Part shown: positions 1,206 through 60,181 of the stretch, piece by piece
How the letters are laid out: the number at the start of each line of letters is the position of its first letter
How positions within the stretch are numbered: the stretch's first letter is position 1
From: Phyllobates terribilis
Taxonomy: Eukaryota
NCBI RefSeq assembly: GCF_046119375.1
Contig: NW_027362762.1
Coordinates: 933,348,001-933,412,000, forward strand
Direction of reading: 5' to 3'
DNA length: 64,000 nt
Program-made: the position numbers and the translations under genes
Notes under the pieces: generated by a model
Databases searched by the model: none
What the model saw: only the letters and a program-made list of their open reading frames with translations
What the model was told of the DNA's origin: nothing

Positions 1206-1340
1206 GTACATATAAATAATACCCCCATATACAGTACATATAAATAATACTCCCCATATACAGTACATATAAATAATACTCCCCATATACAGTATACACA
1301 AATACCACCGTATACTGTACATATAAATAATACCACCGTA
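1206..1340. repeat. ~29-bp AT-rich tandem repeat
   Basis: About 4 degenerate copies of TACATATAAATAATAC(T)CCCCATATACAG. Confidence 0.75.
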
Positions 1341-2600: not shown

Positions 2601-2670
2601 CCAGTTATTGGGGAACTCACAGTGAGCGTATGGTATATACACCTCCGATTACAGTTCATGAGATATACAG

Positions 2671-2675
<5 letters not shown>

Positions 2676-2708
<33 letters not shown>
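2676..2708. repeat. (TA)n microsatellite
   Basis: Run of TA dinucleotides seen directly. Confidence 0.9.
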
Positions 2709-2712
<4 letters not shown>

Positions 2713-3593: not shown

Positions 3594-3707
3594 GGGATCC
3601 AACCAATGTGCAGCTATAAGCTTTCTGACCTGGGATCCAACCAATGTGCAGCTATAAGCTTTCTGACCTGGGATCCAACCAATGTGCAGCTATAAGCTTT
3701 CTGACCT
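3594..3707. repeat. 38-bp exact triplication inside L1 ORF2
   Basis: GGGATCCAACCAATGTGCAGCTATAAGCTTTCTGACCT starts at 3594, 3632 and 3670. Confidence 0.95.
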
Positions 3708-9285: not shown

Positions 9286-9478
9286 CCTTAACCCCATAGC
9301 ATAGAGATTCTATGGGGTATTGTCAAGAGGAAGATGAGAGACACCAGACCCAACAATGCAGACGAGCTGAAGGCTGCTATCAAAGCAACCTGGGCTTCCA
9401 TAACACCTCAGCAGTGCCACAGGCTGATCGCCTCCATGCCAGTAATTGATGCAAAAGGAGCCCCGACCAAGTATTGAG

Positions 9479-11143: not shown

Positions 11144-11313
11144 TCTTCATTGGCTGTAAGCCATAATCATCAACATTAACAGAAATAAACACCTGAAATA
11201 GATCACTGTTTGTAATGACTCTATATAATATATGAGCTATACTTTTTGTATTGAAGATCTGACATAAATTTACTTTTTGATGATATTCTAATTTAGTGAG
11301 ATGCACCTGTATA

Positions 11314-12385
11314 TGTCGCGCCCTGCTGCGCACTTGTGCCACAGAACCCAGAAGGGTGCATGGATGGACTTCTCCACAAGAGGCCCTCACACATTCACAC
11401 ACCTCCACCCTACCACCTCAAACCAGCAGAGGGAGCCCGTTAGGGATATATATATGGAGGGTGGAGCCAGGCAGCTCAGTTTAGTTTAGTGTTCAGTCTG
11501 TGAGCAAAGAGCGTGCTGACGCTCAGAGAGCAGCGAAGAGCAACACGCTGCTGCGGTGCTTAGGCGAGCCAAGGCCTACAGCACGAGGTGAAGCCTAGTG
11601 AGGGCCCTGAGTGTGGCCGAAGGCGAGAGGAGAAGGAAGAAGTAGCGAGGGGGCAGAGGAGCGTACCAGGCTCACCCCAGATATACACCGGACACCGGGT
11701 CCGCGCCTACGGGGTCCCTTTATACCCAGTAGGAACCACTGGACACCTGGAAGACTACAGGTCCCAGGTTTACCAAACGCTGACTACAGTACCAGGGCTA
11801 GGAGTCACGGAGGCCCCAGCGTCCAGGGAGAGTGATCTCCAAGAGAAGGCCCTACCACCAGGTCAGCAGGTGCAAGAGAGAGACAGTAATCAAGCTAGGC
11901 CTAGCTCCAGGCAGGTCAGAAGCTTAGCAAGAGGAAGCAACTGATCAGGAGGCCCTACACCTGCTCACTGGGGAGAGTCCAAAAGTGCACCCTTCGCCCG
12001 GAGTACCCTGGACCGTGCCTGCATCATCACCAGTAAAGGTACAGCTTACCCCCGTGTGAGTGTCCGTCTTTCCTCCGGGACCGTCCTGCCGTCTCTCACC
12101 AGCATCCACCATCTACCCCTACACTGCCCTGGAGCTAGCTCTACCTGTGGAGAGCCACACCATCCCTGCCGCCGTAACACCAGCCCCAGAGGACTGCTCC
12201 GCAGCGGCGGCACCCCTTGGCCGCATTCCACAGGTGGCGTCATGAACTTACTATAAATCCCCTATAAATCATATCCCTTTTTGTTGACCGCCCTGGGTCA
12301 CGGACCGGGCCAGCCACCGTGATATCTCCCCCCAGCAACGACCAGGCCCGGCTGCCGAGTACCCCACGGCCCAGGGGGCGCGTCA
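11314..12385 (+). mobile_element. Solo LTR, Gypsy family related to the 29872 element
   Basis: TGTCGCGCCC...GGGGGCGCGTCA, with flanks TATA/TACA (4-bp TSD, 1 mismatch). The 3' third resembles the LTRs at 29872 and 36766 (CACGGACCGGG, GCGTCA end). Confidence 0.75.
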
Positions 12386-12859
12386 TACACATATACCCCA
12401 GTATGGTCACTGCCAGCTTCAAAAAGAGTTTGAAGTGTCAGCTCTTTCTCCCTTCTGGAGATGTCTAATGGATTTTAATTTTTCTCTATGACACCTCCCC
12501 TTTATTAGAAGTGGCACAGATTTACAGATCGTCACGGCACAGCCTCCCTGGACCCCACAATACCCTCTCCTTCTTGGACTTGGAGATGGGCTTCTCTGTG
12601 AGGTCACTCAGTGCCTCCAGACTGGCATCTGTGGGTAGTGCAGTCTGAAACTCCTGGCCAGAGGTAGCCAGAGATGACGTTAAGGCCGAAACCTCACAGG
12701 AACCCTTTGGTACCGGCTTTAGGGCAGTAACTGGTCCTGTTATCCCGCTGGATGGGGGTCCAGAAGGCAGCACATTACTTGTGTTCTGGGCTCTCTGACT
12801 GCTGACTGACAGCGACTATGTAGGCTGTCTCCCCAGGGAATAACAACACTTTCTCATCA

Positions 12860-13390
12860 GCCTAACACACTGGGGATACCACTTTCCTACCACCATGCCA
12901 GGCTGTGGGACACCCTTTCAAACCATTCTGATAGGCTGTGGATACTACTTTCCCACCACCCTAACAGACTGAGGATACAACTTTCACACCATCCTGACAG
13001 GCTGTGGGTACTGCTTTCCCATCATCCTGACAAATTGGGGATACTACTTTCCCACCACCCTGATAGGCAGTGAGACACACTTTCCCACCATTCTGACAGA
13101 CTGTGGGTAACTTTTTTTCCTCACCCTGACTGTCTGTTGGACACACTTTCCCACCATCCGGACAGGCCGTGGATAAAACTTTCCCACCATCCTGACAGGC
13201 TATGGGTACTGCTTTCCGATTATCCTGACAAACTGGGGATACTACTTTCCCACCACCCTTACAGGGTGTGGGACACACTTTCCTACTACCCTGATAGACT
13301 GTGTATAACACTTTTCCCTCACCCTGACCGGCTGTGGGACACACTTTCCCGCCATTCGGACAGGCTGGGGATAAAACGTTCCCTGCCTCC
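12860..13390 (-). repeat. 33-bp tandem array encoding 11-aa Cys-containing repeats
   Basis: About 15-16 units resembling CACTTTCCCACCATCCTGACAGGCTGTGGGTAC. The minus-strand ORF reads (D/G)GGKVCPTACQ-like repeats. Confidence 0.85.
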
Positions 13391-14013
13391 GTCACCTCAG
13401 GAGCAGTGCTAATCATGGGGCATCTACAATCGGCCATGTCACAGTCTGTCGTGACACTGGTCAGCTGGACGGGACCATCTGCTTCCTGATCCCCGTGCCT
13501 GTCACCATTGTCCCTAGCACTGATTCTCACTCCTTTTAGGAGATCCTCAGCAACATCACCCCGCAGCGTAACATGGCTGAGTTCTCCTGTACCACGAGAC
13601 ATATTATCATTATGCATGACATTGACATTCACATTAACGAAGTTTGAAACACATGAAGTACCAGAGCTGGGATAGTTGTCAGGAGCATATTGAGCGAGCA
13701 ACCGTCCCAGATCAGAACATTTGTGGGGAGGTTCTCGGACACCCCCACTTCCCTTAACCCCCTCCCAGCACTCCAATCCAGGAAAACCTGGGCCATCAGT
13801 AAGGGACGGAGAACACCCTGTGACAAAGTCACTGGCAAAGTACTAGAGGGGAGATGTGTAGCACTGAGGTTGTTAGCTTCAGTAATAAACCTAGGAAAAA
13901 TGATCCAGCACACAAACTGGTGAGAAGGGTTAATCAGCCATGTTTAGTGCTAGGATGATTGAACATCTGCAGAGTGGGAGGATTCCAGAGGACAAATACC
14001 CAGCCTTCTAGAG

Positions 14014-14175
14014 CAGGGTTCCCCAACTCCAGTCCTCAAGGCCCACCAACAGGTCATGTTTTCAGGATTTCCTTAGTATTACACAGGTGATAATTCCATC
14101 ACCTGTGCAATACTAAGGAAATCCTGAAAACATGACCTGTTGGTGGGCCTTGAGGACTGGAGTTGGGGAACCCTG
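14014..14175. mobile_element. 162-bp hAT (Charlie-like) palindromic MITE
   Basis: 78-bp arms with one mismatch and a 6-nt loop. Perfect 8-bp TSD TTCTAGAG at 14006-14013 and 14176-14183. Confidence 0.92.
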
Positions 14176-14302
14176 TTCTAGAGCATTCAGTGTGGGGTGG
14201 GCCTGGAGGTTTGACAAGGTTTGTCATGTGAAAGAAATCTAAACCTTGTGTTGTTTTTTCCTGAGGCGGGCAGTTATTCGTAGCAACACGGACTGTGCCA
14301 TA

Positions 14303-16708
14303 TGTGACATGCAGAAGTAGTGCTGTTGCAGAGTATGATATGTTGCTTTAAAAGCATTCAGCAACTATTAGAAGTAACACAAGCACATGAGACAGGAAGT
14401 GTTGTGCTCCAGAAGCATCCAGCAACTAGAGGGTTTAACGCAGTCACAGGAGAAGGGGAGTGTTTTAGCAGAGCCCCAGGGGGATTGTGGGGAAGTTGTT
14501 TACTGTCTGGCTGGAGCCGAAGAGAAAGGTGGTGTGTGTGTTCTGCATCTGACAGAAGCGCGCCCGCAAGTGAAAAGGATTCAAGTCAGGAGTGAAGCTA
14601 AGCACAGGTCAGGTAGAGTTCCTGAACTAGCAGTGCAGAGTATTGTCAAGCAGAAAGATAAGGACTGTAAGAAATGGTGTTACAGGGATCATCTCCCTCA
14701 GCAAACCCTCCCCCCTCCTCCATCTCACTGTACTGTAAAGAATGCTGTGTTCATTAATGTGCCTTTGCATTAGAACTGTGCTGTCCTGTACTACTGGGAA
14801 GACTGTGAACTGCTGTGCTGCTAAGGAAACTGTACTGTTTGTCACTGGAGCCTGTTGCTGATAAGACTTAACTTGCACTGGCTGTGCGGCTTCTTATTAA
14901 ATGCTACTGTTCTACTGTTTATGAGGACTCTTGTCAAGTGTGTCTGGTCAGCAAGTGAAACAACCTACGTGTCTGTGCCTGAGGGTCAATACCCCTATTT
15001 GCCTGAAAGAAGCTGCAGCACATGGTCTATGGTCGCCCTGAGTAACGGTTCCCCCAGGATTCCAAAGAATTCATGTAACCTGTCTCGCCCCTATCTGAAC
15101 TTAGCGGCGTGCGTGTAACATTGGTGGCCCATACGGGGAGTCCTGAGCAGGAATTAGTGTATAGAGGGAGAAGAGGAAAAGAGTCTGGAAAAACACAGCA
15201 GCACAGCACCTCAACTCAACTCTACTACACCAGTTAAAGGGGACCAGCCCTAAAGAAAACTCACTAGCAGCAATGGATAAGAATACAAATGGACAGAATT
15301 AGTGAGCTGCTTCTTCAGTTAACCTGTGAAGAATTTAGAGTAAAGAAAGCACAGAATACAATGGACCTAAAAAAAGTCAAGGTAGGCTGGCGCCCAGCCA
15401 TCATCCCTGCAAACCAAATGGGGGGGTGAGGTGTGGAGTTCGGGTAGAACCAGGAAGAAAAGTCCAGAAAAGACAGTTTGTGCCAAAAGACTCCTCAGAA
15501 CTTCCAGAAGGCCTAGTTCAAGGTGAGACTGTTCTTACGATTCCTACTGGTGGGTTTGTTCGAGTGACAGTACCGGTGATGAATACTACGAGACACGAAA
15601 TTAGACTGGATCCAAAGACTGTGTTAGGTCACATTGAAACCGTTAAAACGGTATATCCAGCCAGTGTGAGACCCTCCCAGGGGTTTACAGTGAATTCAGT
15701 CTCCCTACCAAGAAACAAGAGTTGCCCAGGGGAAGAAATTGCACGACCCACCTCGGAGTCCTGGGATCCCCCAGTACCCCTGGAACACTTGTGTGCTGAA
15801 GATCGAGCGGTAGCAAAACAGATTTTGAGAGAAGAGTGTCATGCATTCTCCAAAGATGACTCTGATATAGGCTGTATCCCATAATTGCAGTTGAAAATCA
15901 ATTTGAAAGACAAAACCAGAAGTTACATGTCTGTGCCGAAACCATTACACCGTGAAGTGAAAGAGTATTTACAAGACCTAATCAACAGAGGTTGGGTCCG
16001 AAAGTCGAAGTCGTCTTATTCCTCTCCTATTGTTTGTGTTAGGAAGAAGGACGGTACGGTGAGACTCTGCTGTGATTACGGGGAAATAAACCGAAAGTCA
16101 GTACATGATCGGCACCCAATACCAAAAATCCAAGATGTGCTGGATAGCCTATCAGGAAGTACCTGGTTCTCTGTCCTCGATCAGGGTAAGGCATACCACC
16201 AAGGGTTTGTCGAAGAGTCCAGTAGACCCTTGACAGCATTCATCACACCGTGGGGATTATATGAGTGGATCCGCATACCGTTTGGGCTCAGTTCAGCTCC
16301 AGCAGAATTCCAGAGGAGCATGGAGACATGTTTAGAAGGATTGAGGGACGATATCTGCCAGCCGTACTTGGATGACTATGTGGTACACAGCAAAACCTTC
16401 CGGGAGCATGTTGAACACATGAGGACCGTATTAAAACACGGAGTTAAGTTGACCCCAAAGAAGTGTGAACTGTTCAAAAGGCAAGTCCGATTTCTAGGGA
16501 AAATTGTGTCTGGAGAAGGCTATACCATGGACCCAGCAGAAATCGCTCCGGTACTGGCCTTAAAAGACAAGCGGCCCTCTACCGTCGGGGAGTTGAGGCA
16601 GATATTAAGATTCCTCTCCTACTATCGTACTTATGGTTCCCCCAGGACTCCAAAGAATTCATGTAACCTGTTTCGCCCCTATCTGAACTTAGCGGCGTGT
16701 GAGTAACA
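14303..16708 (+). mobile_element. Internally deleted Ty3/Gypsy inserted in the 5' LTR of the Gmr1-like element
   Basis: 4-bp TSD CATA at 14299-14302 and 16709-16712. 5' LTR 14303-15120. PBS TGGTGGCCCCATACGGGGA (tRNA-Ile-like, imperfect). RT fragment 15885-16630 ([30 protein letters not shown]). Only the last ~75 bp of the 3' LTR remain. Confidence 0.85.
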
Positions 16709-19700
16709 CATACATAATGTTTTGTGTTTCCTGTTAGGCTGGGAAGGCCGTGTTTGTTTTGCTAACGTTGCCATGGTTAATGCAGTACTCTTAATAAACC
16801 AGTGGAATATTTAAAGAGACAATGTTCCTGTATGTGCAGACGCGTGAACCAATCTACCACAGTTGGTGCTAGAAGTGCGGCAAGATCCCCAGGAAGCAAG
16901 TGTGACGGCTGTGGACAACTGCATGTCCTGGGTGAAGGCGGCTGTAAGGATGGAACAGCGGTCAGGCAAAATGGAGGCGCTGATCAAGCACCTGGTCCAA
17001 AGCCAACACCAACAGCACCTGCAACAGCTTCAGCAGCACCGGGAGCAGCAGAAGCTACAGCAGCAACGGCTGGCACAACAGTAGAAAAGTAAGCTGCTGA
17101 TGCAAGAGCTCCAGTAGCAGCAACGGTACCAGCAACAGAGCCAACAACAGCAGCAGCAGATTGATTTACTCACAGACGCAGTTCGTGGCACTGCAGCAGC
17201 TCCGATCCCAACGTCAGCTGGTGATTTCTCTGTCCGGAAGGCGGTGAGGAGAGCCTTGCAGAAGATGACCCCAGGTGACGACACAGAGTCCTTTTTAACA
17301 GTTTTTGAAAGGGTCGCCGATAGGGCGAAACTTCCACCAGAGCAGTGGGCAGAAGTCCTGGCGCCCTACTTAACGGGGGAGCCACAAAAGGCCTACTATG
17401 ATTTAGCCTAACAGGATAAGATACAATATGAAAAACTGAAAACGGAAATTTTGGCGCGCTTGTCCTTCAGGGCACAACGGGTCCCCCTCGCTCCCAAATA
17501 TTTGATCTGCTACACCTTGTCCAAAAGTGGCTACAGCAGGAGTCCTCTACACTAGCGCAGATGGTGGCATGAGTTGTAATGGACCGGTTTGTGGACTCCC
17601 TTCCGAACCCGATGCAGACTTAGGTTGCCCAGGGAGAGCCCTGGAACACCGATGACTTGGTTGGACTGGTCGAAAGGTATCATGGGGTCGACGGGACCTT
17701 GGGGAGGCAACCCACTCCATATTGGGGGTGGGGGGAGGTTAAAAAGGGGGTTGGGCATCCAAAGTCCAAGTGGGTGGCGGAGGTCATGCCAAGGGCCTCA
17801 TCGGGGGATGTAATTTGGTGGAGATGTTACGGCTCAGGTCATATAGCAGCCCATTGTCCCCTGACCACCGAGCAAATGGACTGTAGCATGGGATGCCGGT
17901 GTTCATTCTACGCCTATCCAGCTGGCAGTATGGACTGTCCACCTCGCAAGGGGCCCCAAGTTTGTCCTGTAAAAGTGAATGGCCTGCAAATGACTAGATT
18001 ACTGGACTCAGGGAGTTTGGTGACTCTCTTGAGGGCTACACCCTCTCTAATTGATCTCTGGGAAGAAGGTCCGCTGAATTCACGGGGATGCTGAAGACCA
18101 TCCGGTGGCCAGAGTGGTCATTGAGACAGCCCAAGATACTGAGTCCCATGAGGTCGGCATAGTCCCGGATTTATTGCACCCAATTATCATAGGTTGGGAC
18201 TTTGTGTTGTTTTTGGACGTTTGTGGGAGGGGCGGAGACCACTATTGTACGGGTAAGAAACAGGTTGGCCCTAAAAAAGTCTCACCAACCCCAGAGTTTG
18301 ACGGGTTTCCCTTCTGTGTAATGGGAGAAGAGGAGAAATTAGTATTCCCTGAGGCAGACATTCCTGAGATAGGGGTGACCAGAGAAAATTAAATTTTAGG
18401 GACCTATCTCTAAAAAAAAGTGTTCAATAAGGTAACCGTCATAAATGGCATAGCACAGGAGTTGGAGGCTGACACCAGGTTTCCCTATTTCATGTTGAGT
18501 GGGGACTTATTGTACTGAGTTACTAAGGTGAGGAAGGAGATAGTGTAGCAATTGTTGGTACCAGAGCCCTATAGACAAAGGGTGTTGGACAGGGTCCATT
18601 CACATGTCTTAGGTGGCCATCTGGGGGTTGACAAAACTCAAGAAGGGGTCATGCAGAGGTTCTGTTGGCCCAGATGTCACAGAGAAATCCTAAGATATTT
18701 CAAGTCCTGTCCCACCTGCCGGTTAACCGCTACCACATCTCACTCTCAAAATCCTCTCATGCCGATATCCATCAAGGCAGGGCAACAGAGGGACGCCGTT
18801 GAAACTCCATGTTGGCTGGACAAGCCAGATGGGGACATTGAGGATGTCACAATGGCACAGACACTGTCACTGGCCCAGAAATAACAGTGCCAAGAACTGC
18901 TCCAGCAGAACAGGGACCCGTTTTTGGAGTTGCCAGGATGTACGCAGATGGTTGAACATGAAAGCCTGATGGAACCACATGTGCCGTATATGTGCCGAAC
19001 AGTCGTAAAGAATCCCCGAAGCCCACCATGAGGTGATTTCAAAGGAGGTGAGGAAAAAGTTGACCCAATGCGTCATCAAGGAGTCAAAGAGCAACGGGTC
19101 CAGACCCCCTTTCCTTATGCGGCAGCCTGGGGGAGAATCACGTTTCTGCAACAACCACAGGAAACTAAATGTGGTGTCAAAATGTGATGTGTATCTGATG
19201 TCCCGCATCAATGATCTCAGAGAGAAGCTAAGGTCAGCTAGATACATCACCACCCTTGACCTAACGAAAAGGGTATTGGCAAAGTGCAAAGTAGAAGATG
19301 GCCTCTTCTACACCTGAATGTTGCTTCCAGTATACCAGAGTTCCGTTCTGGCTGCAAGGAGACCCAGCTACCTTCCAGAGGGCCATGGACTGGATCTTAG
19401 CCCCTCCCAAAAAATATGCCGCAGTTTACCTCGACAACATTGTGATATTCAGCCCGGATTTGGGAAGTCACCTGCAGAAGGTCCAGGTCGTGCTGCATGT
19501 GCTGAGGAAGTGGGGGTCTACCATAAACCCAAAGAAGTGTGCCATGGAGAAAAAAAAGGGAAAATACTACATCGTCGGAAGAGGCGAAGTAAAGCTGCAA
19601 GTAAATAAGGTGGAGGAAATCCAAAATTGGCGAAAACGGTCTCCAAGAAACAGGTTTGGACATTTCTAGGAATGGTGGGATACTATCATCGGTGTATCCT

Positions 19701-22700
19701 TAATTTCACCATGACAGCCATACCCCTGACCGACCTTCTTGAGGGCACGAAGACGTCAATGGCCAAATGGTCTCTTGAAGCAGAGATGGCGTTCCAAGAG
19801 TTGAAACTCAGGGCTACAGGAATTGTAGAACAACAGCCTAAGAAGCTGCACAACAAGGCAGATGCCCTGTCTAGACTTCCCTGTTTGGTGACTGAAGGTG
19901 CCAAAACCCCCGGCTTTAGGAAGAGGAGGGGGGTATTTGTGACAGTACTAGAGGGGAGATGTTCACAAAAAGAACAGATGCACCAGGCCCCTGGGTCCAG
20001 GGCGTGGGGTTCCTCTTCTGCCTCTCCGGGCAGGTGAGGCTCATGTGACCAGTTCGGTCGCAGATATAGCACCAGTGGGAGTCTGATGCAGGGTGCTAAC
20101 CCCTTTCCAGCTCGCGACGGCTGACTTCCGCGCCTCAGGTATATGGTTGGCCTCATAGGTATCTGCAATCTGTGCGGCCTTGACACCTCCACAGGGCAAA
20201 GTTGAAGAAATTGGTCTTTCACCATCAGGTCTCTCAGTTCCTCGAAGGTGGTAACCAATAGTCCCTGGAACCACTGCTTGAAGTTGGCCCTAAGCCTGTC
20301 CACCACATCACCGTAGCTGTCGTGATGTTCACGTTGGAGGATCCAGAACTTTTTTCTGTACACCTCAGGAGTTAGCTGATATTTCCTGATCAGGGCCTTT
20401 TTGATGGCCTCATAATCTCCATCATGTTCTCGAGGGAGAGAGGCGAACACCTCTGGAGGTTTGCCTCATAGCCCTGTGGTTAAATATCGGGTCCACTGGT
20501 CATCAGGCAGCTCGTACTGTCTGCAGGCCTTTTCAACCCCCATCAAAAATGTGTCCAGATCCGCATCCTTATCCATGACAGGAAAATGCTCAAGACGGGG
20601 TTTAAAGATTTTGGTATTACTGGACTCACTGTTCAGTAGGGTAGATGGCTCCTACTGGGGTCGGGCTAACGCGAACTAGTGGTCTTCATCAGCCTGTCAC
20701 TCTTGTGCCTCTTGCTCGGCCTGACAAGGCTTGACGCTCAGCAGCCTCTCGCTTGGCCTGACGCTCGGCTCACTTTTGGAATTGTTGAATCAGATTGAGT
20801 CATCCCTCACGATCGTCTGCGTCAAGTTGCAGTAAGGCCATATGTAGTTGGGGGTTCCCACTACCCTGGGTGTGGATGTGGCTATGCCTTGGCTTGCCTC
20901 ACTTTCAACAGGGCTTGAGTGATGGATTTGCTCTGTGTCCTGTTGCACCAGTGCAGTGGGCATTTGCTGCCTGTTTTTGCCAGTAAAGTCAATCTGTCTG
21001 ACCATACAGATGGCAGCAGGAGCCTCCTTTTTCATCTGGTTGTACCAGGCCTTCTCAACTGTAGCCATGCTTGGCAAATAAAAGATAGGACAGAAAAACA
21101 AGAGAGGTGAGAGGGATGTAACTGCTACATGTACAGTATTGTTCCAGGTAAAAAAAATAAAACATGTAGTCTGATCCTCACAATGACCATGCAAGTTTTT
21201 AGTGACAGGGATGATTGCTCAATCCAGCCACTAATGCTCTGTAATATCCCACTGCTACCACCAATATTTCAAGGATACATAGCCTTTGGGGTGGGGGGGG
21301 GGTCGCACAGAACCCACCACTGTTACCACTTTGTCAAAGATGACACCAAAGAGATCCCACAGATCCCACCAGTTGTCAGGGAACTGCAACTCGGCTACCT
21401 CCAATTGTCATGACAATTACGCCATTGGCTGATGGACAAGACCGCGGCTGCTTTCACTACTAGGCTGATTACTGAAAATTACTAAACCTGGTCACGGAAA
21501 TGGCTCAGAGCTTAGCGGAGGGAGGCACTCCGATTGGAAAACAGACAGAACATACAGTAAGCTGTACCTTCCAAGTACTGACATCCAAACCCAACTACCG
21601 CTTTTTATTAGCTCAAGGTTACACCTACACTCCTCCCCTTGATGAGCTCATTTAGGGGCTGATTGTGGGATGTGCTCAGCCCTTCAGAATTTTATGAGAT
21701 CCACAAACTTACAGGGTATCTTTGCACCTGGAGGTCGCAGACGGTAGATATTGTTATGTTTCTTAATGCCATTTTATCTTTCGATAGATATGAAATATGG
21801 CAGGTATAGCATTGGCTATCGGAGCGTTATTAAGTTGGAGGGGTTCTAATGGCCCTACAGTGATGTGAGTGAATGCCTTCTATTCGTCCCATCACTTACA
21901 TTTTCAGTGTATCTGCCATATATAATCAGATTGATGTAAAACCCCAATATTCATATCTTAACATCGGAGGTCTGGGTGGCTGTTCCCACAATAGACCTCT
22001 GATGTAATTACCTGGTCACTGCAGGAGGTCTCTGCTTCAAAAGAGAGGTTAAAGCTTTTCCGGTATTTTTAATTACCTCATTTCCCTTGTTAGAATTAGT
22101 TTCTTTCTCCCTTCCCCAAATGTTCAATGTGAGGCCTACTTCAAAAGAAGTTTGAAGCGTAAGCTCTTTCTCACTTCTGGATTTAAATTTTTCTCTCCGA
22201 CAGGGAGGAAAAAACGAAAATGAGAAAAACAGAAAAGAGCCCGGGAGCTCTAAAAGCAACAATTTTTTTTATTGTGACTTCATTAAAATAATAAAATGGG
22301 CATAAAAATATGACACGTTTCGAGTCTACGATTAAGAGTCAGCCAGACTCGAAACATGTCAAATATTTTGCCCATGCTATATTTTAATGACATGACAAAT
22401 AATTTTTGCTTCTAATTCTTGTTGTTGGATTAAAAAAAACTTTTTCATTACTGCAAAGAAGTGGATCTCTAGAGTGTCAGCCTATTTGGAGTAAAAAAAA
22501 TTTCAGAATGTAATTAGAGAATGCCAAGGATAGTAGAAAAAAATGTAAATGATTTTATAAATATGTTTAAACACAAGAAGTTGATTTAAAAGAAATGTTG
22601 GAAAATATCTAATTTTTTCAAAGGGGTAATTCCATCTTATAAAGTAATGGTCAATCGTTAACATATGCCATCACATAATGATCTACGGGTGTCTGGCCTA

Positions 22701-28907: not shown

Positions 28908-29384
28908 CTGGAAAAATATATAAATTATAGTAGATCAGTAATATTAAAATACTAAAAGTCTATAGGATATAAAAGAATGAATGTGAAATAAAAATAGTAA
29001 AAGTACCAAAATATTAAATAGTAATACCATAAATTATTGTTCATTTATTCCGATGTAATATTTTATTTCATTATTATATCTTAAATATTACAATTTATAT
29101 AAATAGAAAAGTAATAGTATATAAAAGTAATACAAAATAAAAGGGCACACTAATATTCATTTAAATTTGTACTATTTAATGTTAGTATTTTTCACTAGAT
29201 CAGTAACCTAAAATAATTGTTATTTATCCTATTGCTATTCACTATTTGATTACTTAATTTTTTTACATTTATCTTATGTTCCTATAATAAGTAGATTTTT
29301 TATTTTTTTTAAATCCTCCATATAGTTTTAGAGATCTGGTCTTTTTTATTTGGTATTTTATGGTCCTTCCAAGGCAGCGTGGTT

Positions 29385-29871
29385 AACAGGATTCCAGGGG
29401 GGAGGGGCGGCGTGCTTCACAGGATTCCAGGGGGGAGGGAGGGGCGGCGTGCTTCACAGGATTCCAGGGTGGGAGGGAGGGGCGGCGTGCTTCACAGGAT
29501 TCCAGGGTGGGAGGGAGGGGCGGCGTGCTTCACAGGATTCCAGGCGGGCGGCGTGCTTCACAGGATTCCAGGGTGGGAGGGAGGGGCGGCGTGCTTCACA
29601 GGATTCCAGGGTGGGAGGGAGGGGCGTGCTTCACAGGATTCCAGGGTGGGAGGGAGGGGCGTGCTTCACAGGATTCCAGGGTGGGAGGGAGGGGAGTGCT
29701 TCACAGGATTCCAGGGTGGGAGGGAGGGGAGTGCTTCACAGGATTCCAGGGGGGGCGGGCGGCGTGCGTCACAGGATTCCAGGGTGGCAGGGAGGGGAGT
29801 GCTTCACAGGATTCCAGGGTGGGAGGGAGGGGCATGCTTCACAGGATTCCAGGGTGGGAGGGAGGGGCATG
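29385..29871 (+). repeat. G-rich minisatellite, left part
   Basis: About 14 units of ~35 bp: (GCG)TGCTTCACAGGATTCCA plus GGGTGGGAGGGAGGGG variants. Confidence 0.95.
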
Positions 29872-30873
29872 TGTGGCACCCCAGGGGTCTGGTTTCCACA
29901 GTAACGGCAATGTTATGTCTGAGAGCAGGTGGGAGGTCTCTTGGTCAGGGATCCTGTGCATGCCACACCTCCTGCCCAGTCCTGGGAGGGGAAGAACTTC
30001 CCCTATAAAAACCTAGGGCTGAGGCAGGGTTAGTGAGTAGAGAAGAAGTAGAGACAGAGAAGAGAAGCAGCATAGGAAGAAACAACAGGAGCTCTGTGGG
30101 AGCAGTACTACAAAGAGTCAGGGGCTGGCAGCTGCAGAGCTCGCCCTGACTGAGAAGCTATCACCGGACCTGGAGTCCGAGGCTGTGGGGACTAACTCCT
30201 ATCCAGCAGCAGAAACCGACCGGCAGGGGATTTCAGGTCCTCTGGCCAAGAAACCCGAAGGCACGGTCACACGCGTGGGACCAGCACCGCCGTCGTGGAG
30301 CGGAAGCTACTAGAAGGCCCCGAGTCACCGGCCATACGGGTGAGCACCACACGGTACACTCAGGGACGTGGGCTACTTATACCCGCCTCTAGCAAGGTAG
30401 CCAGAAGAGTACAGTTAGTTTGGGAGGCCTACAACTCCGCCTGGCCAGGGGAGATCCCATCTGCTCAAGGACTGACCAGGCCCCAATCGCTAGCCAGTAC
30501 TCCGGGAGGGTCTATCTTTGTCACCAGTAAAGACCCTGAACTACACCGTACCGTCTCCGAGTGGTTCCTGCTACCCCCATCATCCACGTCGGCTGCCCTG
30601 AGGCCATACCCCTCCCGTTGGGGGTGATACTATCACGCTGCACAATCCTACCACCGGCCTCAGCGGTCTGCCCTGCAGCGGCAGCTCCTTCGCTGCATTC
30701 AACGGGTGGCGTAGTCGTACAACATCTACCACTAATACAGCGCCACTTAGTCTGACTCCCTGGGCACGGACCGGGTCACCGCCACGAGACTACAACCCTC
30801 AACAGATCCGGCTCCGGGTAAGCTCCCGCGTGCGCAACGCTGCGCGACACAGGCCCAGGGGTGCGTCAACTTT

Positions 30874-30892
30874 TGGCGTAGTCGGCAGGATT
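30874..30892 (+). other. Primer-binding site, tRNA-Ser
   Basis: TGGCGTAGTCGGCAGGATT is complementary to the vertebrate tRNA-Ser(AGA/TGA-type) 3' end AATCCTGCCGACTACGCCA. Confidence 0.9.
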
Positions 30893-31308
30893 TCGTGCCC
30901 GCAACCACCGGGTACTGCGTGCCTGAAAAAGACTGTTCAAACTTACCAGTGGTGAAGATTCCCGCCATCCGGCGCCATCTTCAGCCTTCCTCCCGCCATC
31001 GGTGAAGATTCCCGCCATCCGGCGCCATTTTCAGCCTTCTTCCCGCCTTCCGTGGAGTTTTCCCGCCGTTGGACGCCATCTTGAAGACGCCGCGCGGGAA
31101 GAAGAGGGGCGTGGACTCCAAAAGCGCGCGAGAACTGAAGCCCCGCCTCACGTCCAGACGTCGCGTAAGGTCCTGGAAGGAGCCCAGCAGACGCTGACGT
31201 CACAGGAGCGCGACGGAAGGTCCTCAACCCTGACGATCCACTGCGGAGCCGCGGCCTACGGAAGAGGATCATCGCAAGGTAGGCCACGGTCCACTAGGGG
31301 GGAGAAGG

Positions 31309-32289
31309 ATGTCGGATACGGAGGAGAGCTTCACCGCTTCAACCCCCGCCAGCGCCACCGCTGTTGCGGTCATGCCTTTCACCATGCCCTATATCCCGGG
31401 GGCAGCCTGGCTACCCCAGTACTCAGGGGAGTCACATACCCTGCATGACTTTAGAGAAAAGCTGGATAGCCTCTTCCAGGTGTATCCCCTCACAGAGGAG
31501 CAAAAAGTGAGCATCCTGGTGGCCCAATTAACCGGGGCAGCCCAAAGGGAGGTAAAGTCCTGGCCACCTGGGAGGAGGACTGTCGCAGAGATACTAACCC
31601 GGCTGAGGGACACCTTTGATACCCGCACCTCAGCCGAGATCAAGCTTAGATTCTACGGGTGCAAACAGCGGGCACATGAGAGTATAAGGGACTATGCCCT
31701 GAACCTACAAGAGGCCCTGAGAGCCATTAAGCAGACCGACCCTGACGGCGTGGGAGACGAGGACAGGCTGTTGACTGAACAATTTATAGAGGGTTTATAT
31801 TGCAATACCCACCGAACCCAGTTGCGGGCAATGGCCTTACAGGACCCTCATCTGGGATTTGCACAGTTCAAGGACAGAGCCATCCGGGTGCTCCGAGAAC
31901 CGGCACCAGGTGGCGTTGTGACCCACAGACGCCCCACTACCACTTACCACCAGGAGGCGGCACCCATCTCGGCAGGGCCTGTGGGAGCTGATGCGCAGGC
32001 TTTGAACAATGACCCGGCTCCAGACCTGCACCATCAGGTCCAAGAGCTAGCTAAAAGCGTTGCCGCGCTAACCCGAACTGTGCAGTCTTTACAGGTTTCC
32101 AATCCAGGGAAGATCCAGCTGGCATCCGGACCGGAGGACATCCCGTGGCGTCGACCAAGGAGGACCCCACCGGCCAGAGGAAGACCCAGCGACCGATACA
32201 ACGAGGACGGACAACCCATCTGCCGCCGCTGCAATCAACCCGGACATATGGCAAGGTACTGTCCTTTAAACTGGCACAACCTGGGGTAG
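31309..32289 (+). CDS. Gypsy Gag (326 aa) with CCHC zinc knuckle
   Basis: Open ORF with CRRCNQPGHMARYC near the C-terminus. Confidence 0.9.
   Translation: MSDTEESFTASTPASATAVAVMPFTMPYIPGAAWLPQYSGESHTLHDFREKLDSLFQVYPLTEEQKVSILVAQLTGAAQREVKSWPPGRRTVAEILTRLRDTFDTRTSAEIKLRFYGCKQRAHESIRDYALNLQEALRAIKQTDPDGVGDEDRLLTEQFIEGLYCNTHRTQLRAMALQDPHLGFAQFKDRAIRVLREPAPGGVVTHRRPTTTYHQEAAPISAGPVGADAQALNNDPAPDLHHQVQELAKSVAALTRTVQSLQVSNPGKIQLASGPEDIPWRRPRRTPPARGRPSDRYNEDGQPICRRCNQPGHMARYCPLNWHNLG
32265..32271 (+). other. -1 ribosomal frameshift slippery heptamer
   Basis: T TTA AAC is in the gag frame (X XXY YYZ), and pol lies in the -1 frame overlapping the gag end. Confidence 0.75.
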
Positions 32290-35200
32290 AGGGCCAAACC
32301 CCAGGAAAAAGATCATCAGGCCCATCGAACTGGCGCGACAGATATGTGGGAGGACGTCCAGTCTTGCCTGTGGTACTGGATGGCATCCCTATGAGTGCCC
32401 TATTGGACACCGGGTCACAGGTCACCACTATCCCGTACGTGCTCTTCAAGCAGTACTGGAATGACTCGGATATCACCCGCTACCCTGACGACGACTTGAG
32501 TATCATCGCCAGCAATGGTCAGCCCGTGCCACAGATTGGATTTAAAGAGGTGACCATTAAAATCGGTAGAGTCGAACTGGCAGCACAGGGACTGATCATT
32601 GTAGACATTGACAAACACGAGAGTCACCCAAAGATAACTCTAGGAACTAATGTAATTGAAAATTGTCTTGCAGAGGTGATTTTCCTTTTACAACAGGTTG
32701 CCAAGAACGCCAGCTCCGGCAAGCAGCGAGTGCTCCAGAAAGAGATCCGGGCACTGATGCGACGGCAACAGATAGAACTCTCCGGTGGTGAGATTGGTAG
32801 CGTAAGAATGTGTGACCCTTTCCCTATTGCCATGCCCCCAAAAAGTGAAATGATGATTTGGTGCCGGGCAGCTATTGGTCTGAGAGGTAGAGATTACCAG
32901 GCAATGGTAGAACCAGTTTACTCAGACAGTAGGCCGACCATTTTGACAGCACGGGGGGTGGTCAATGTACGCCATGGGAGGGTGCCCGTTCGCATAATAA
33001 ATATCGGGAAGAGGGAAGTGTACCTGCCCCGGTATGCCACGCTAGCCAAATTGTATACCATCAATCAAAATTCCATACAGTCCGTAGAACCCTTGCCTCC
33101 ATCTTCCCCGGAGGAAGGTAACGGCTCTAAAGAAACAATGGAGGACTGGTGTCAGCAACTACATTTGGGTACTGACTCCACTCCCTCACACCAGAAACAG
33201 GGAGTCTATCGGGTGGTTCAAGAGTACGAGAGAGTGTTTAGTAAACACCCGTTAGACTTCGGGCGAGTCAAAGGGGTAGAACACCACATCCCCACGGGAG
33301 ACCATCCTCCCATAAAAGAGAGGTATCGACCCGTACCCCCTGCACACTACCAACACGCCAAGGGGATGCTTAGGGACATGAAGGAGGCTGGGGTGATCAG
33401 GGATAGCTGTAGCCCCTGGGCAGCTCCACTAGTCTTAGTCAAAAAGAAAGACAACACCATGAGGATGTGTGTAGATTACCGGAAAATTAACCGTATCACA
33501 CACAAGGATGCGTACCCCTTACCAAGGATAGAGGAGTCTTTGGCTGCTTTAAGATCTGCTAACTTCTTCTCTACCTTGGATCTCACTAGCGGGTACTGGC
33601 AGGTTCCTGTAGCAGAGGCGGACCGGGAGAAGACCGCATTCACCACCCCGATGGGACTTAGCGAGTTTACCTGCATGCCGTTCGGACTCTGCAACGCACC
33701 GGGAACCTTCCAACGATTAATGGAGTGCTGTCTGGGCCACAGAAACTTCGAGACAGTCCTGTTGTACCTGGACGATGTCATCGTATATTCCAAGACTTAT
33801 GAGGACCACCTGAAACACCTGGCGGAAGTGTTTTAAGCCGTAGCTTGCCAGAGCTTCGAGGTAAAACCCTCCAAGTGTCACCTCTTGAAACCAAAGGTGC
33901 AGTACCTGGGACACGTGGTGAGCGCTGACGGAGTGGCTCCCGACCCTGATAAGATCACCGCAATTAAGGAATGGCCAAGTCCCTCCAGTGTAAAGGAAGT
34001 GCGGCAGTTCCTCGGGTTGGTAGGCTATTACCGCAGATTCATCCCCGGTTTCACCAAAAAGGCAGATCCTATGCAGGACCTCATGATAGGCCAGTCCCGG
34101 AAGGCCAAGAACCAGAAGCCGCCCTTCAAATGGGAGAAGTTAGAAGAAGAGTCCTTCCGCCAGCTGAAGATGGCCCTCACGGGGGATGAAATCCTGGCGT
34201 ACCCTGATTACAGCCAGCCCTTTATCCTCTACACCGACGCAAGTAACATCGGGCTAGGAGCCGTACTGTCCCAGATCCAGCAGGGGAAAGAACGAGTAAT
34301 CGCTTACGCTAGCCGAAAACTGCGACCCACCAAAAGAAACCCTGAGAATTACAGCTCATTTAAGCTAGAGTTCCTGGCAGTGGTGTGGGCAGTCACCGAA
34401 CGCTTTAAGCACTACCTCGCTTCTTCCCGGTTCACCGTGTACACGGATAACAACCCGTTGACACACCTGGACACGGCAAGACTCGGTGCCCTACAGCAGA
34501 GATGGATGGCCCGTCTGTCCAACTACGAGTTCACAATCAAATACCGGGCAGGACGCTCCAATACCAACGCGGACGCCCTGTCCAGGATGCCAAACCTACC
34601 GGACGTAGGAGAAGATCCAGAGGGACTGGAAGAAGTCGAACTCCCCGCGTTCCACCGTCATGGGACTATCCAGTATTCCCATCGGGTAAGGAGTAAGCAA
34701 GCCGCTACGTTTAACCCCTTGCCTCACTACAACTGGGAGGAAACGCAAGACAGTGACCCTGCCGTCCGGCTGGTAAAGGAGATGCTGACTCGGCCAGAGG
34801 CTCGCCTTGACCCAGACGCTCCGGAGGAAGCCAAGCAACTGTGGGCTGAGAAGAGTCGACTGTTCCTTTACAAGGGGAAGTTGTGCCGCAGAATGGTTAA
34901 CTCCCGGACGCATGAACTAATCTGGCAAGTAGTGGTGCCACGGAGAGACGCAGCCATGGTGATGGAGGCATACCACGACGGGGCTGGACACTTCGGATGG
35001 AAGAAGCTGGAGTTCCTGCTGCGTGGGCGGTTCCACTGGGTAGGCATGAGGGGAACCATCGAGAGGTGGTGCAGAGACTGTGGCCCGTGCAACCTAAGAA
35101 GGAAGGACCGTGCCAGCCAGAAGACTCCCCTGCAGTCCATCGTCACCCGGCAGCCGTTGGAACTGGTAGCCTTGGATCATGTAAAACTGACCCCAAGCAG

Positions 35201-36401
35201 AAGTGGCTACGTCTACGCGTTAACCATTGTGGATCATTACTCCCGGTTCTTGGTTGTCGTCCCCGTTAAGGACTTAACGGCTCAAACAGCAGCTAGAGCC
35301 TTCCAGCAGCACTTCTGCCGTCCACACGGGTACCCGGACTAAGTGCTGACGGACCAGGGACCTGCCTTTGAAGCGGAGGTCTTCCAGGAATTCTGCAATC
35401 TGTATGGCTGCCGGAAGATAAGGACGACACCCTATCATCCGCAAACTAATGGACTTTGTGAGAAAATGAACCAGGTGGTAATGGATCTCCTGAAAACGTT
35501 GCCCCTGGAAGAACGCAGTCTGTGGCCTGAGAAGCTGCCCGATCTGGTGGACCTATACAACCACATCCCGGTAGGTTCCACCAACTGTACCCCGGCTTAC
35601 CTAATGAGGGCGAGACCTGGTAAGTTACCTGTTGACCTGGAAATGGGAGTCCTGACACCCGAGGACACTTCCCCAGAAGCAGACTGGGACACAGAGAGGC
35701 AGCAGCAGTACCGGAAAGTACAGGAGAGCGTGGAGCGAAGTCTCTGTCAGGCTAGGGAAAGACAAGAGAAAACTTACAACCAGTATGCTCCCGCTGTTCC
35801 CCTGGTACCCGGAGAGCAGGTCTTGAAGAGGAAAAGACGGCTCCACAAGTTGGACGACCAGTGGGAGAAGGACCCGTACACCGTACTGCCCTCAAGCCAC
35901 GAGAACCCGAAAGTCTGTACCATCAGTAAAGACGGAGGGGAGACCATAGCCATTGTATCCCGGGATCACCTGAAGAAGTGTCCTGAACAGCTACGGAACC
36001 CTGAAGAGGAACAAGAAGACCATCGACCCGTAGAGGAAAGGGAGGATATGGTTAGTACTGTGCTCGGAGACTTCCCTCGGTCCTGGACTCAAGTCAATGG
36101 TGCAGTTGTGGTACCCGTCCTCACGTTCCTCCAACCAGCATCCCAAGTGCCTACGGAGCAACAGGTAGAGCTGGAAGAGCAGCCGGTCCAGGAGGCAGAA
36201 GACTCCACACAAGCAGAACAGGAGGATCAACCCTCTGCTTATAGTGAGCCTGCCGTACCCCTAGTGAGCCAAAGAGCCGGTAGACAGCTGCCCAGTTTAC
36301 CCTTGACAGCTCCTACACCCTGTAGTTCAGGGCTAGACAGTCAGCTCCGTAGGTCCACTAGGGCCACTAGAGGCCAGTTACCCGCACGTTGGAGGATTTG
36401 A
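32271..36401 (+). pseudogene. Gypsy Pol (PR-RT-RNaseH-IN) with two in-frame TAA stops
   Basis: Motifs LLDTGSQ, YLDD, YTDAS, HDGAGH...CRDC, ALDH, TDQG and GLCEKMN all lie in one frame. Stops are at 33834-36 and 35340-42. Confidence 0.92.
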
Positions 36402-36756
36402 AGTGTATAAATTGTTTTATTTGTGGTTACCTGTTTTTCTTGTTGCTTGTGTATAATTATGTGTTTCTAGTTATTTATACGAGTCCTTGGTGGATTTACC
36501 GGGAATCCTTGTACATGGTTGGAGCGTAACCTAGGAATGGACTAAAGACTGTTAAGGACTCGGGGCAGGACAGACCCCTACCTGGTTACGTCTCCCTGTT
36601 TTGGTGAAATGGACACCTTGCTTTTCTTCAAAGACTGCACCCGGTTGCGGACACGCCGTAACCATCTTTATGTGTTTTTCTTATTGTATTATTATTGTTT
36701 ATACCTTGTTATGTTTTTCTAAAAATATGTTTAGTCCCGGAGTACTAAATTTCACT

Positions 36757-36765
36757 AGGGGGGAA
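36757..36765 (+). other. Polypurine tract
   Basis: AGGGGGGAA immediately before the 3' LTR TG. Confidence 0.85.
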
Positions 36766-37762
36766 TGTGGCACCCCAGGGGTCTGGTTTCCACAGTAACG
36801 GCAATGTTATGTCTGAGAGCAGGTGGGAGGTCTCTTGGTCAGGGATCCTGTGCATGCCACACCTCCTGCCCAGTCCTGGGAGGGGAAGAACTTCCCCTAT
36901 AAAAACCTAGGGCTGAGGCAGGGTTAGTGAGTAGAGAAGAAGTAGAGACAGAGAAGAGAAGCAGCATAGGAAGAAACAACAGGAGCTCTGTGGGAGCAGT
37001 ACTACAAAGAGTCAGGGGCTGGCAGCTGCAGAGCTCGCCCTGACTGAGAAGCTATCACCGGACCCGGAGTCCGAGGCTGTGGGGACTAACTCCTATCCAG
37101 CAGCAGAAACCGACCGGCAGGGGATTTCAGGTCCTCTGGCCAAGAAACCCGAAGGCACGGTCACACGCGTGGGACCAGCACCGCCGTCGTGGAGCGGAAG
37201 CTACTAGAAGGCCCCGAGTCACCGGCCATACGGGTGAGCACCACACGGTACACTCAGGGACGTGGGCTACTTATACCCGCCTCTAGCAAGGTAGCCAGAA
37301 GAGTACAGTTAGTTTGGGAGGCCTACAACTCCGCCTGGCCAGGGGAGATCCCATCTGCTCAAGGACTGACCAGGCCCCAATCGCTAGCCAGTACTCCGGG
37401 AGGGTCTATCTTTGTCACCAGTAAAGACCCTGAACTACACCGTACCGTCTCCGAGTGGTTCCTGCTACCCCCATCATCCACGTCGGCTGCCCTGAGGCCA
37501 TACCCCTCCCGTTGGGGGTGATACTATCACGCTGCACAATCCTACCACCGGCCTCAGCGGTCTGCCCTGCAGCGGCAGCTCCTTCGCTGCATTCAACGGG
37601 TGGCGTAGTCGTACAACATCTACCACTAATACAGCGCCACTTAGTCTGACTCCCTGGGCACGGACCGGGTCACCGCCACGAGACTACAACCCTTAACAGA
37701 TCCGGCTCCGGGTAAGCTCCCGCGTGCGCAACGCTGCGCGACACAGGCCCAGGGGTGCGTCA

Positions 37763-38552
37763 CATGCTTCACAGGATTCCAGGGTGGGAGGGAGGGGAGT
37801 GCTTCACAGGATTCCGGGGGGGGGGGGGGGGGGCGTGCTTCACAGGATTCCAGGGTGGGAGGGAGGGGAGTGCTTCACAGGATTCCAGGGTGGGAGGGAG
37901 GGGCGTGCTTCACAGGATTCCAGGGTGGGAGGGAGGGGCATGCTTCACAGGATTCCAGGGGGGGGGGCGCGTGCTTCACAGGATTCCAGGGTGGGAGGGA
38001 GGGGCGTGCTTCACAGGATTCCAGGGTGGGAGGGAGGGGCGTGCTTCACAGGATTCCAGGGTGGGAGGGGGGGCGTGCTTCACAGGATTCCAGGGGGGCG
38101 GCGTGCTTCACAGGATTCCAGGGTGGGAGGGAGGGGTGTGCTTCACAGGATTCCAGGGGGGAGGCGTGCTTCACAGGATTCCAGGGTGGGAGGGAGGGGC
38201 GTGCTTCACAGGATTCCAGGGGGGCGGCGTGCTTCACAGGATTCCAAGGGGGGGGGCGGCGTGCTTCACAGGATTCCAAGGGGGGGGGGGGGGGGGGAGT
38301 GCTTCACAGGATTCCAAGGGGGGGGGGGGGGGGGAGTGCTTCACAGGATTCCAAAGGGGGGGGGGAGTGCTTCACAGGATTCCAAGGGGGGGGGGCGTGC
38401 TTCACAGGATTCCAAGGGGGGGGGAGGGAAGTGCTTCACAGGATTCCAAGGGGGGAGGGGGGGCGTGCTTCACAGGATTCCAAGGGGGGGGAGGGAAGTG
38501 CTTCACAGGATTCCAAGGGGGCGGCGTGCTTCACAGGATTCCAAGGGGGCAT
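37763..38552 (+). repeat. G-rich minisatellite, right part
   Basis: About 24 units with the same core. Distal units switch to CCAA followed by long G runs. Confidence 0.95.
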
Positions 38553-54679: not shown

Positions 54680-55590
54680 CAGTACAGACCAAAAGTTTGG
54701 ACACACCTTCTCATTTAAAGATTTTTCTGTATTTTCATGACTATGAAAATTATACATTCACACTGAAGGCATCAAAACTATGAATTATCACATGTGGAAT
54801 TATATACTTAACAAAAAAGTGTGAAACAACTGAAAATATGTCTTATATTCTAGGTTCTTCAAAGTAGCCACCTTTTGCTTTGATGACTGCTTTGCACACT
54901 CTTGGCATTCTCTTGATGAGCTTCAAGAGGTAGTCACCGGAAATGGTCTTCCAACAATCTTGAAGGAGTTCCCAGAGATGCTTAGCACTTGTTGGCCCTT
55001 TTGCCTTCATTCTGCGGTCCAGCTCACCCCAAACCATCTCGATTGGGTTCAGGTCTGGTGACTGTGGAGGCCAGGTCATCTGGCGTAGCACCCCATCACT
55101 CTCCTTCTTGGTCAAATAGCCCTTACACAGCCTGGAGGTGTGTTTGGGGTCATTGTCCTGTTGAAAAATAAATGATGGTCCAACTAAACGCAAACCGGAT
55201 GGAATAGCATGCCACTGCAAGATGCTGTGGCAGCCATGCTGGTTCAGTATGCCTTCAATTATGAATAAATCCCCATCAGTGTCACCAGCAAAGCACCCCC
55301 ACACCATCACACCTCCTCCTCCATGCTTCACGGTGGGAACCAGGCATGTAGAGTCCATCCGTTCACCTTTTCTGCGTCGCACAAAGACACGGTGGTTGGA
55401 ACCAAAGATCTCAAATTTGGACTCATCAGACCAAAGCACAGATTTCCACTGGTCTAATGTCCATTCCTTGTGTTCTTTAGCCCAAACAAGTCTCTTCTGC
55501 TTGTTGCCTGTCCTTAGCAGTGGTTTCCTAGCCGCTATTTTATCATGAAGGCCTGCTGCACAAAGTCTCCTCTTAACAGTTGTTGTAGAG
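54680..55590 (-). mobile_element. 5'-truncated Tc1 (family D)
   Basis: TA|CAGTACAGACCAAAAGTTTGGACAC TIR at 54680. The minus-strand transposase runs from TTVKRRL through WSDESK, QQDNDPKH and SPDLNPIE to EEPRI* (54843). The N-terminus and second TIR are absent. Confidence 0.88.
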
Positions 55591-59610: not shown

Positions 59611-60181
59611 TTTATTCTTTAACTGCAGTTCACATAAGCTTCTTTCTGAATTAGACTAAACCTGACAATTGTGGATACCCCTGATTTGAGGTTGCTGCCC
59701 GGCATTCCTATCTCCTGTGAATCTGGATGGGGTTTATATTCACATGCATTGCTGGTGACATGTCAGTGATTTTCGGCACGGATTCCCTTTTGTCAGTTTT
59801 TAAATACGACTTCCATCTCACTGTGTTACATACCTAAAACTACTTAAAATTAAAATGTTTTTATTTTTATTTTTTTTATCAAAATTTGTCATTTACTATC
59901 AAACTGCAGCTCGACCCGTAAATAACAAGGTGTCTCACTGCTCCATTGACACAATTTAAGTTATCGACACAATATTTTTTTTTTCTTGTTAACCATGGGT
60001 ATTTTTTCTATTTTTCAGTACTCCAACCCGTATTACATTAACAAGCTCATTTTTCTGTCGACATAAAGATCCTCATCAGATAGGTGGAGGTTCCGGGTGT
60101 GTAGGTGTGTAGCTGCGGCCAGGAATAAACCATGTATAAAGCTACGACGCCACACCTCTGTATTTCACTAAAAAGGACATA

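What the first reader, a model, noticed from the sequence alone, without database searches (positions are those of the whole stretch)
33833..33858. 26-bp micro-inversion creates the RT stop codon; flipping it restores a consensus-like RT
The observed frame reads VF*AVACQSFEVKPSKC. Reverse-complementing 33833-33858 (TTAAGCCGTAGCTTGCCAGAGCTTCG to CGAAGCTCTGGCAAGCTACGGCTTAA) gives GTG TTC GAA GCT CTG GCA AGC TAC GGC TTA AAG GTA = VFEALASYGLKVKPSKC, the typical Gypsy RT pattern after YLDD. One event thus explains a stop and about six apparent substitutions. The ends form an imperfect inverted repeat (AAGC/GCTT), as expected for template switching at a quasi-palindrome by the host polymerase or by RT itself.
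Basis: seen in the sequence. Interest (0 to 1): 0.7.

Follow-up and report, generated by a model that had tools for sequence, protein, structure and literature searches.

The report
One-off micro-inversion in a dead retrotransposon
In one of about 480 near-identical copies of a young jumping gene, a 26-28-base piece lies back to front and creates a stop codon; it is likely an ordinary slip of the host's DNA copying or repair, because the same kind of flip also appears in this genome's DNA transposons, which use no reverse transcriptase.

Summary
The inversion is real in the assembly. Window 33833-33858 (breakpoints blur to 33832-33859) matches the opposite strand of 100 of 100 sister copies checked. 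Of 483 exact 26-mers in the genome, only this one has these junctions. It sits in the RT gene of a young Ty3/Gypsy element whose LTRs differ at 2 of 997 bases. It is private, so it was not spread by retrotransposition, and pol has a second private stop at 35340. The 4-base arms lie inside the flipped piece, with 1 base of homology outside and no unusual hairpin.

A survey found further in-place inversions of 20-36 bases: 2 in 132 other Gypsy copies, 2 in 96 Tc1 DNA-transposon copies and 2 in flanking repeats. Rates per substitution are alike with and without RT (1 per ~1,700 and ~1,300), which favours host template switching or microhomology repair. The pooled rate, about 1 per 2,000 substitutions, is far above ape estimates and nearer bird estimates, but rests on 6 events. 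Read support was untestable. The scan has noted this mutation class on other DNA. Ordinary.

The parts
33833..33858 (.). In-place micro-inversion relative to all sister copies checked; breakpoints ambiguous out to 33832-33859; 12 of 26 bases differ
33834..33836 (+). Premature stop codon in RT, inside the inverted piece; sense codon in 100 of 100 sister copies
33835..33838 (+). Left 4-base inverted-repeat arm, internal to the inversion
   Evidence: sequence
33853..33856 (+). Right 4-base inverted-repeat arm, internal to the inversion
   Evidence: sequence
29872..37762 (+). Full-length Ty3/Gypsy LTR retrotransposon copy, defective; at least 483 family copies hold the exact 26-mer
29872..30868 (+). 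5' LTR, 997 bases, TG...CA
36766..37762 (+). 3' LTR, 2 mismatches to the 5' LTR
29868..29871 (+). 4-base target-site duplication, left copy (right copy 37763-37766)
   Evidence: 74 of 86 sister copies also have 4-base duplications
30874..30891 (+). Likely primer-binding site; the match to a serine tRNA is recalled, not tested
   Evidence: sequence printed
31234..32289 (+). gag frame (PNMA-like, Retrotrans_gag, zinc knuckle)
32055..36401 (+). pol frame (protease, RT, RNase H, integrase), broken at 33834 and 35340; no room for env (365 bases to the 3' LTR)
35340..35342 (+). Second, independent private stop codon, in the integrase core
36757..36765 (+). Polypurine tract
   Evidence: sequence printed

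Best explanation
A 26-28-base stretch of this one retrotransposon copy lies inverted in place, likely made once by the host's own DNA replication or repair after the copy had integrated. Shown: the inversion, its polarity, its privacy, the stop it creates, and events of the same kind in elements that use no RT. Inferred: a polymerase left its template, copied the 26-28 bases from the opposite strand and returned (type 1-3-2-4 of the four-point template-switch model), or a break was repaired by microhomology-mediated synthesis. The internal 4-base arms plus one outer pair likely guided the return step. It has no function: it is one of two independent lesions in the pol gene of a redundant copy.
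For: Polarity and privacy. Pure inversion, no length change. Same class in Tc1 DNA transposons: a private 36-base event in L252 and a 36-base event shared by 15-17 copies among 96, and a 23-base event in another Tc1-like element, L257. Rates per substitution agree: Gypsy 2 in ~3,450 (window event left out), Tc1 2 in ~2,600. Per aligned base the older Tc1 family has about 5 times more (10.5 against 2.0 per Mb), as expected if events build up with age. The size falls within 17-33 bases for ape micro-inversions (PMC8755829) and 5-38 bases, median 22, for birds (PMC3123225).
Against: Event counts are tiny and the intervals overlap widely (Gypsy 1 per 478-14,245; Tc1 1 per 360-10,735). All three Gypsy events sit in copies no older than average (relative ages 0.87, 0.91, 0.49), which leans slightly towards an origin at reverse transcription. 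Only 1 base of homology lies outside the breakpoints, thin for a classical template switch. The copy carries at least one rare change in both LTRs (30008 and 36902), so some of its private changes predate integration and the inversion could be one of them.
Confidence: 0.7

Rival explanations
1. The element's own reverse transcriptase made the inversion during the round of reverse transcription that produced this copy, by a brief switch to the opposite strand.
For: The event is private to one very young copy. Three of 133 Gypsy copies (2.3%) carry one; 2 of 78 HIV-1 proviruses had inversions of unstated size (PMC9278108, passages). Carrier copies are no older than average.
Against: DNA transposons without RT show the same events at the same or a higher rate per substitution, so RT is not needed. 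No inversion was found in both LTRs of any copy; none was found in an LTR at all.
Confidence: 0.22
2. The inversion is an artefact of sequencing or assembly.
For: It is seen in one place of one assembly only.
Against: The copy is otherwise clean (LTRs 99.8% alike). The event is an exact reverse complement with no indel. Events of this class scale with family age rather than with bases read, and one is shared by 15-17 dispersed Tc1 copies, so the class is biological.
Confidence: 0.06
3. The piece is a reversible genetic switch that turns RT on and off.
For: It creates a stop in RT just after the YLDD motif.
Against: 1 of 483 copies; a second independent stop in the same gene; arms of 4 bases lying inside the piece; PMC8755829 argues that pieces under 33 bases cannot loop for site-specific recombination.
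Confidence: 0.02

Closest known systems
Definite micro-inversions between human and chimpanzee (Potapova, Kondrashov, Mirkin 2022; PMC8755829; read parts 1-3 of 5 of the text)
   Same: Pure in-place inversion, 26-28 bases within their 17-33 range, with short inverted repeats at the ends; they propose microhomology-mediated break repair for short or imperfect repeats.
   Different: Their repeats' inner edges lie -5 to +4 from the breakpoints in 57 of 59 cases; here the inner edge is at -6 and only 1 base pairs outside. None of theirs hit coding sequence. They put the rate five orders of magnitude below substitutions; here it is about three.
Type 1-3-2-4 short template switch, four-point model (Loytynoja and Goldman 2017, PMC5453318, passages; Walker et al. 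2021, PMC7954356, passages and part 2 of section 8)
   Same: Inverts a fragment and creates no new repeat; needs an inter-strand switch.
   Different: Found there in ape genomes (45% of 794 events; Walker et al. later overturned the claim that it is the commonest type); here in a retrotransposon copy of a 10.6-Gb genome.
Avian intronic micro-inversions (Braun et al. 2011; PMC3123225; passages and section 10)
   Same: Length (median 22 bases), no need for stem-loops, occasional recurrence. 0.25 per Mb per million years is about 1 per 4,000-12,000 substitutions at a recalled bird rate, within 2-6 fold of the estimate here.
   Different: Measured across species in introns, not across transposon copies in one genome.
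Ty3/Gypsy LTR retrotransposons (yeast Ty3 RT, PDB 4ol8 and 7q5b)
   Same: Best solved-structure hits of the RT (E 2e-42); order protease-RT-RNase H-integrase; LTRs, PBS-like site, polypurine tract, 4-base target duplication.
   Different: Vertebrate-type PNMA-like gag; this copy is defective; no env; the clade was not placed on a tree.

Membership tests
Pure micro-inversion | Segment equals the reverse complement of the homologous segment, in place | tested here: met
   27 of 29 exact; 100 of 100 opposite orientation
Pure micro-inversion | Length of 15 bases or more, beyond chance | tested here: met
   26-28 bases, 12 differing positions, p about 4e-33
Pure micro-inversion | Polarity fixed by outgroups | tested here: met
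   Subfamilies down to about 80% identity also match on the opposite strand
Pure micro-inversion | Inverted repeat of 3 or more bases with inner edge -5 to +4 from the breakpoints (PMC8755829) | tested here: inconclusive
   4-base arms with inner edge at -6; such arms occur in 4.1% of background stretches; 1 base outside
Pure micro-inversion | Present in raw reads | not testable with these tools
   Only assembled contigs of runs were available; they drop rare variants of a 480-copy repeat
Classical quasi-palindrome (Ripley-type) spacer inversion | Pre-existing near-perfect inverted repeat flanking the inverted spacer | tested here: not met
   Arms lie inside; two mismatched bases beyond each arm were inverted too; folding z 0.32 and 0.01
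RT-made rearrangement | Confined to retroelements | tested here: not met
   Three events in Tc1-type DNA transposons
RT-made rearrangement | When in an LTR, present in both LTRs | tested here: inconclusive
   No LTR-located event in the copies surveyed
Ty3/Gypsy LTR retrotransposon | Two LTRs with TG...CA ends and a target-site duplication | tested here: met
Ty3/Gypsy LTR retrotransposon | pol order protease-RT-RNase H-integrase, RT closest to Ty3 | tested here: met
Ty3/Gypsy LTR retrotransposon | tRNA primer-binding site and polypurine tract | tested here: inconclusive
   Purine tract seen; PBS-like site seen, tRNA match recalled only

The most novel reading that the evidence does not exclude
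This 10.6-Gb genome makes 20-36-base in-place inversions about once per 1,500-2,000 substitutions, some 50-fold or more above great-ape estimates, in retrotransposons and DNA transposons alike. Its host repair or replication would then be unusually inversion-prone, and its young transposon families (48,596 exact hits for one Tc1 family alone) would form a ready-made mutation-accumulation panel holding hundreds of such events, enough to decide between template switching and break repair.
Probability: 0.25. Interest if true: 0.5.

Novelty: new member of a known kind. Interest (0 to 1): 0.22.

Why it matters
The single event matters little: it is one scar in one dead copy of a large family. Its use is as an example of a method. 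Young transposon families give hundreds of near-identical controls that fix polarity, breakpoints and age, and a DNA-transposon family separates host errors from RT errors. The side result, about one micro-inversion per 2,000 substitutions, would matter if a like-for-like comparison with mammals confirmed the excess, because the mechanism of micro-inversions with very short arms is still disputed (PMC8755829).

Tried and rejected
Read support: one run search found 12 holders in 3 studies, all kept as assembled contigs. Laying X1-X4 and X1, X2, X5, X6 showed only the family orientation. Contigs drop rare variants and this one is about 1 in 480, so this says nothing about the assembly.

Closest relative: none of 112 copies shares more than two of the window's rare bases; DNA searches on two clusters of private changes found no identical copy. 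The inversion therefore cannot be dated against integration: about 8 post-insertion substitutions are expected from the LTRs and 14 private ones lie outside the inversion.

Young Tc1 family as control: 31 copies held only 106 singleton substitutions and 0 events, so it has no power; a DNA search for it returned nothing.

Dropped candidates: four 12-base opposite-strand hits in L072 (two), L120 and L051, explained by single changes or ordinary polymorphism; an intrinsic 12-base palindrome at 34435; the L231/L261 hit, a 5-base loop of a long palindrome with ambiguous alignment. L201, L203 and L204 were dropped as tandem duplicates of L202.

The first cluster test missed the L110 event because of its 1-base loss; the opposite-strand search found it. 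A strong-hairpin origin was rejected. A paper on MLV vector rearrangements (PMC189744) was not held. No supplements were read; the table of event types in Walker et al. could refine the ape comparison.

Full report
Setting. The window comes from an unnamed 10.6-Gb animal genome; an amphibian is my guess from size and repeat types, and was not tested. The finding lies in a full-length Ty3/Gypsy LTR retrotransposon at 29872-37762. Its LTRs are 997 bases with 2 mismatches, it has a 4-base target duplication, and it is inserted in a 35-base minisatellite. Pfam gives gag, protease, RT, RNase H and integrase in that order. The best solved-structure hit of the RT is yeast Ty3, and there is no room for env.

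The observation. A DNA search scored 40 of 1,771 candidates; 37 of the 39 other copies also gave a 28-base perfect hit on the opposite strand at 33832-33859. Of 29 loci fetched, 27 match the 26-mer exactly on the opposite strand and 2 with one change, while 12 of 26 bases differ on the same strand. The 26-mer occurs exactly 483 times in the genome, but a 43-base pattern across both junctions occurs once, here; a copy with the inversion plus a change in the 8-9 flanking bases would have been missed. I fetched the first 100 listed of the 483 (contigs C1 and C2): 100 of 100 carry the opposite orientation and a sense codon at the stop. Diverged subfamilies agree. The window copy is therefore the derived state, and the event is private.

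Breakpoints. The inversion is pure, with no length change. Five of 7 symmetric positions pair, which 1.6% of 5,800 background stretches also do, and 4.1% have a 4-base arm in a comparable range; both tests were chosen after seeing the site. Neither state folds better than shuffles (z -0.45, 0.32, 0.01). This is microhomology, not a quasi-palindrome.

Age and other lesions. Only 8 of 86 sister copies have LTRs as alike (median 5 mismatches), but the spread is nearly Poisson, so most copies belong to one burst. The copy has 14 other private changes, including a second stop at 35340 that none of 98 covering copies has. One rare change is in both LTRs, so some changes predate integration. No close sister copy was found, so the inversion cannot be placed before or after integration directly.

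Family survey. Pairwise comparison with 100 copies (770,739 aligned bases) found one more event: 21 bases with a 1-base loss in L110, homologous to 34087-34107. Twenty more diverged relatives gave one more: 20 bases including 4-base flanking arms in L149. Twelve further copies gave none.

Control without RT. A young Tc1 family was uninformative (31 copies, 106 singleton substitutions, 0 events). An older Tc1 family (48,596 exact 22-mers) gave two 36-base events among 96 sequences, all but one from the first 14 Mb of C1. One is private to L252. The other is carried by 15 copies by one test and by 17 of 86 covering copies by another; no linked variant was found, so one origin or recurrence is undecided. 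An all-against-all search of 559 kb of flanking DNA gave 3 candidates. I kept 2: L257, in a Tc1-like element, and L263, in an unclassified repeat. I dropped 1, a loop in a long palindrome.

Rates. Leaving out the window's own event: Gypsy 2 in ~3,450 substitutions (1 per 1,725; 95% interval 478-14,245); Tc1 2 in ~2,600 (1 per 1,300; 360-10,735); pooled with the flanks 6 in ~13,000 (1 per 2,175; 999-5,927). Denominators are rough: LTR divergence for Gypsy, half-distances for Tc1, and about half of the best-partner differences for the flanks. Equal rates per substitution and a 5-fold higher rate per base in the older family point to a host process that builds up with time. Against this, the three Gypsy carriers are no older than average (0.87, 0.91, 0.49), and 2 of 78 HIV-1 proviruses carried inversions of unstated size (PMC9278108, passages), so RT stays possible.

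Mechanism. Shown: inversion, polarity, privacy, consequence, and occurrence without RT. Inferred: an inter-strand double template switch of type 1-3-2-4 (PMC5453318, passages) or microhomology-mediated break repair, proposed for short or imperfect arms (PMC8755829, parts 1-3 of 5). My data do not separate these two. I give the host route 0.70, RT 0.22, artefact 0.06 and a switch 0.02.

Comparison. Apes: 59 definite events of 17-33 bases, put at five orders of magnitude below substitutions; about 357 type 1-3-2-4 events in human-chimpanzee (45% of 794), roughly 1 per 100,000 substitutions using a recalled 35 million differences. Birds: 0.25 per Mb per million years, median 22 bases, with the authors arguing that mammal rates were underestimated (PMC3123225); this is about 1 per 4,000-12,000 substitutions at a recalled rate. 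The rate here is well above the ape figures and near the bird figure, and methods differ. Six paper searches (listings only) showed no survey of micro-inversions across transposon copies or in amphibians; the library lacks most subscription journals. Earlier notes of this scan report the same mutation class in other genomes and none in this one.

Verdict. Observation confirmed; interpretation partly supported. It is an ordinary, known class of mutation in a dead copy. The only lead beyond that is a possibly high genome-wide rate, resting on 6 events. Interest 0.22.

Noticed in passing
L110 (G000:C2:330293185-330301410), homologous to window 34087-34107: Second independent micro-inversion in the same Gypsy family: 21 bases with a 1-base loss at one end, 1 of 100 copies.
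   Followed up: yes
L149 (G000:C2:381691881-381700549), homologous to about window 35417-35436: 20-base inversion (12-base core between 4-base arms) in a related Gypsy subfamily, private among 20 diverged copies.
   Followed up: yes
L202, L193 and others; oriented position about 2025-2060: 36-base inversion carried by 15-17 of 86-95 copies of the older Tc1 family, with no linked variants found: one early event spread by transposition, or a recurrent hotspot.
   Followed up: partly
L252 (Tc1), L257:5049-5071, L263:1501-1536: Three more private in-place inversions of 23-36 bases, two in Tc1-type DNA transposons and one in an unclassified repeat similar to window 14.3-15.1 kb.
   Followed up: partly
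window 4654-6313 and 60175-61830: Two copies of a very young Tc1 family with open 358-residue transposase frames and 210-base terminal repeats; 791 exact 22-mers in the genome, most of 31 copies 99.4-99.8% alike, so recently or still active.
   Followed up: partly
window 54680-55590: Truncated member of a Tc1 family with 48,596 exact 22-mer hits, about one per 217 kb.
   Followed up: partly
window 29365-29871 and 37763-38430: The Gypsy element inserted into a G-rich 35-base minisatellite and split the array.
   Followed up: no
window 14300-20500: Decayed second LTR-type element (RT, integrase zinc finger), a further RT fragment and a SCAN-domain frame on the minus strand.
   Followed up: no
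window 30008 and 36902: A rare change present in both LTRs of this copy, so acquired before or during its reverse transcription, or by conversion between LTRs.
   Followed up: partly
window 14007-14182: Near-perfect hairpin, 85-base arms 98% complementary with a 6-base loop.
   Followed up: no
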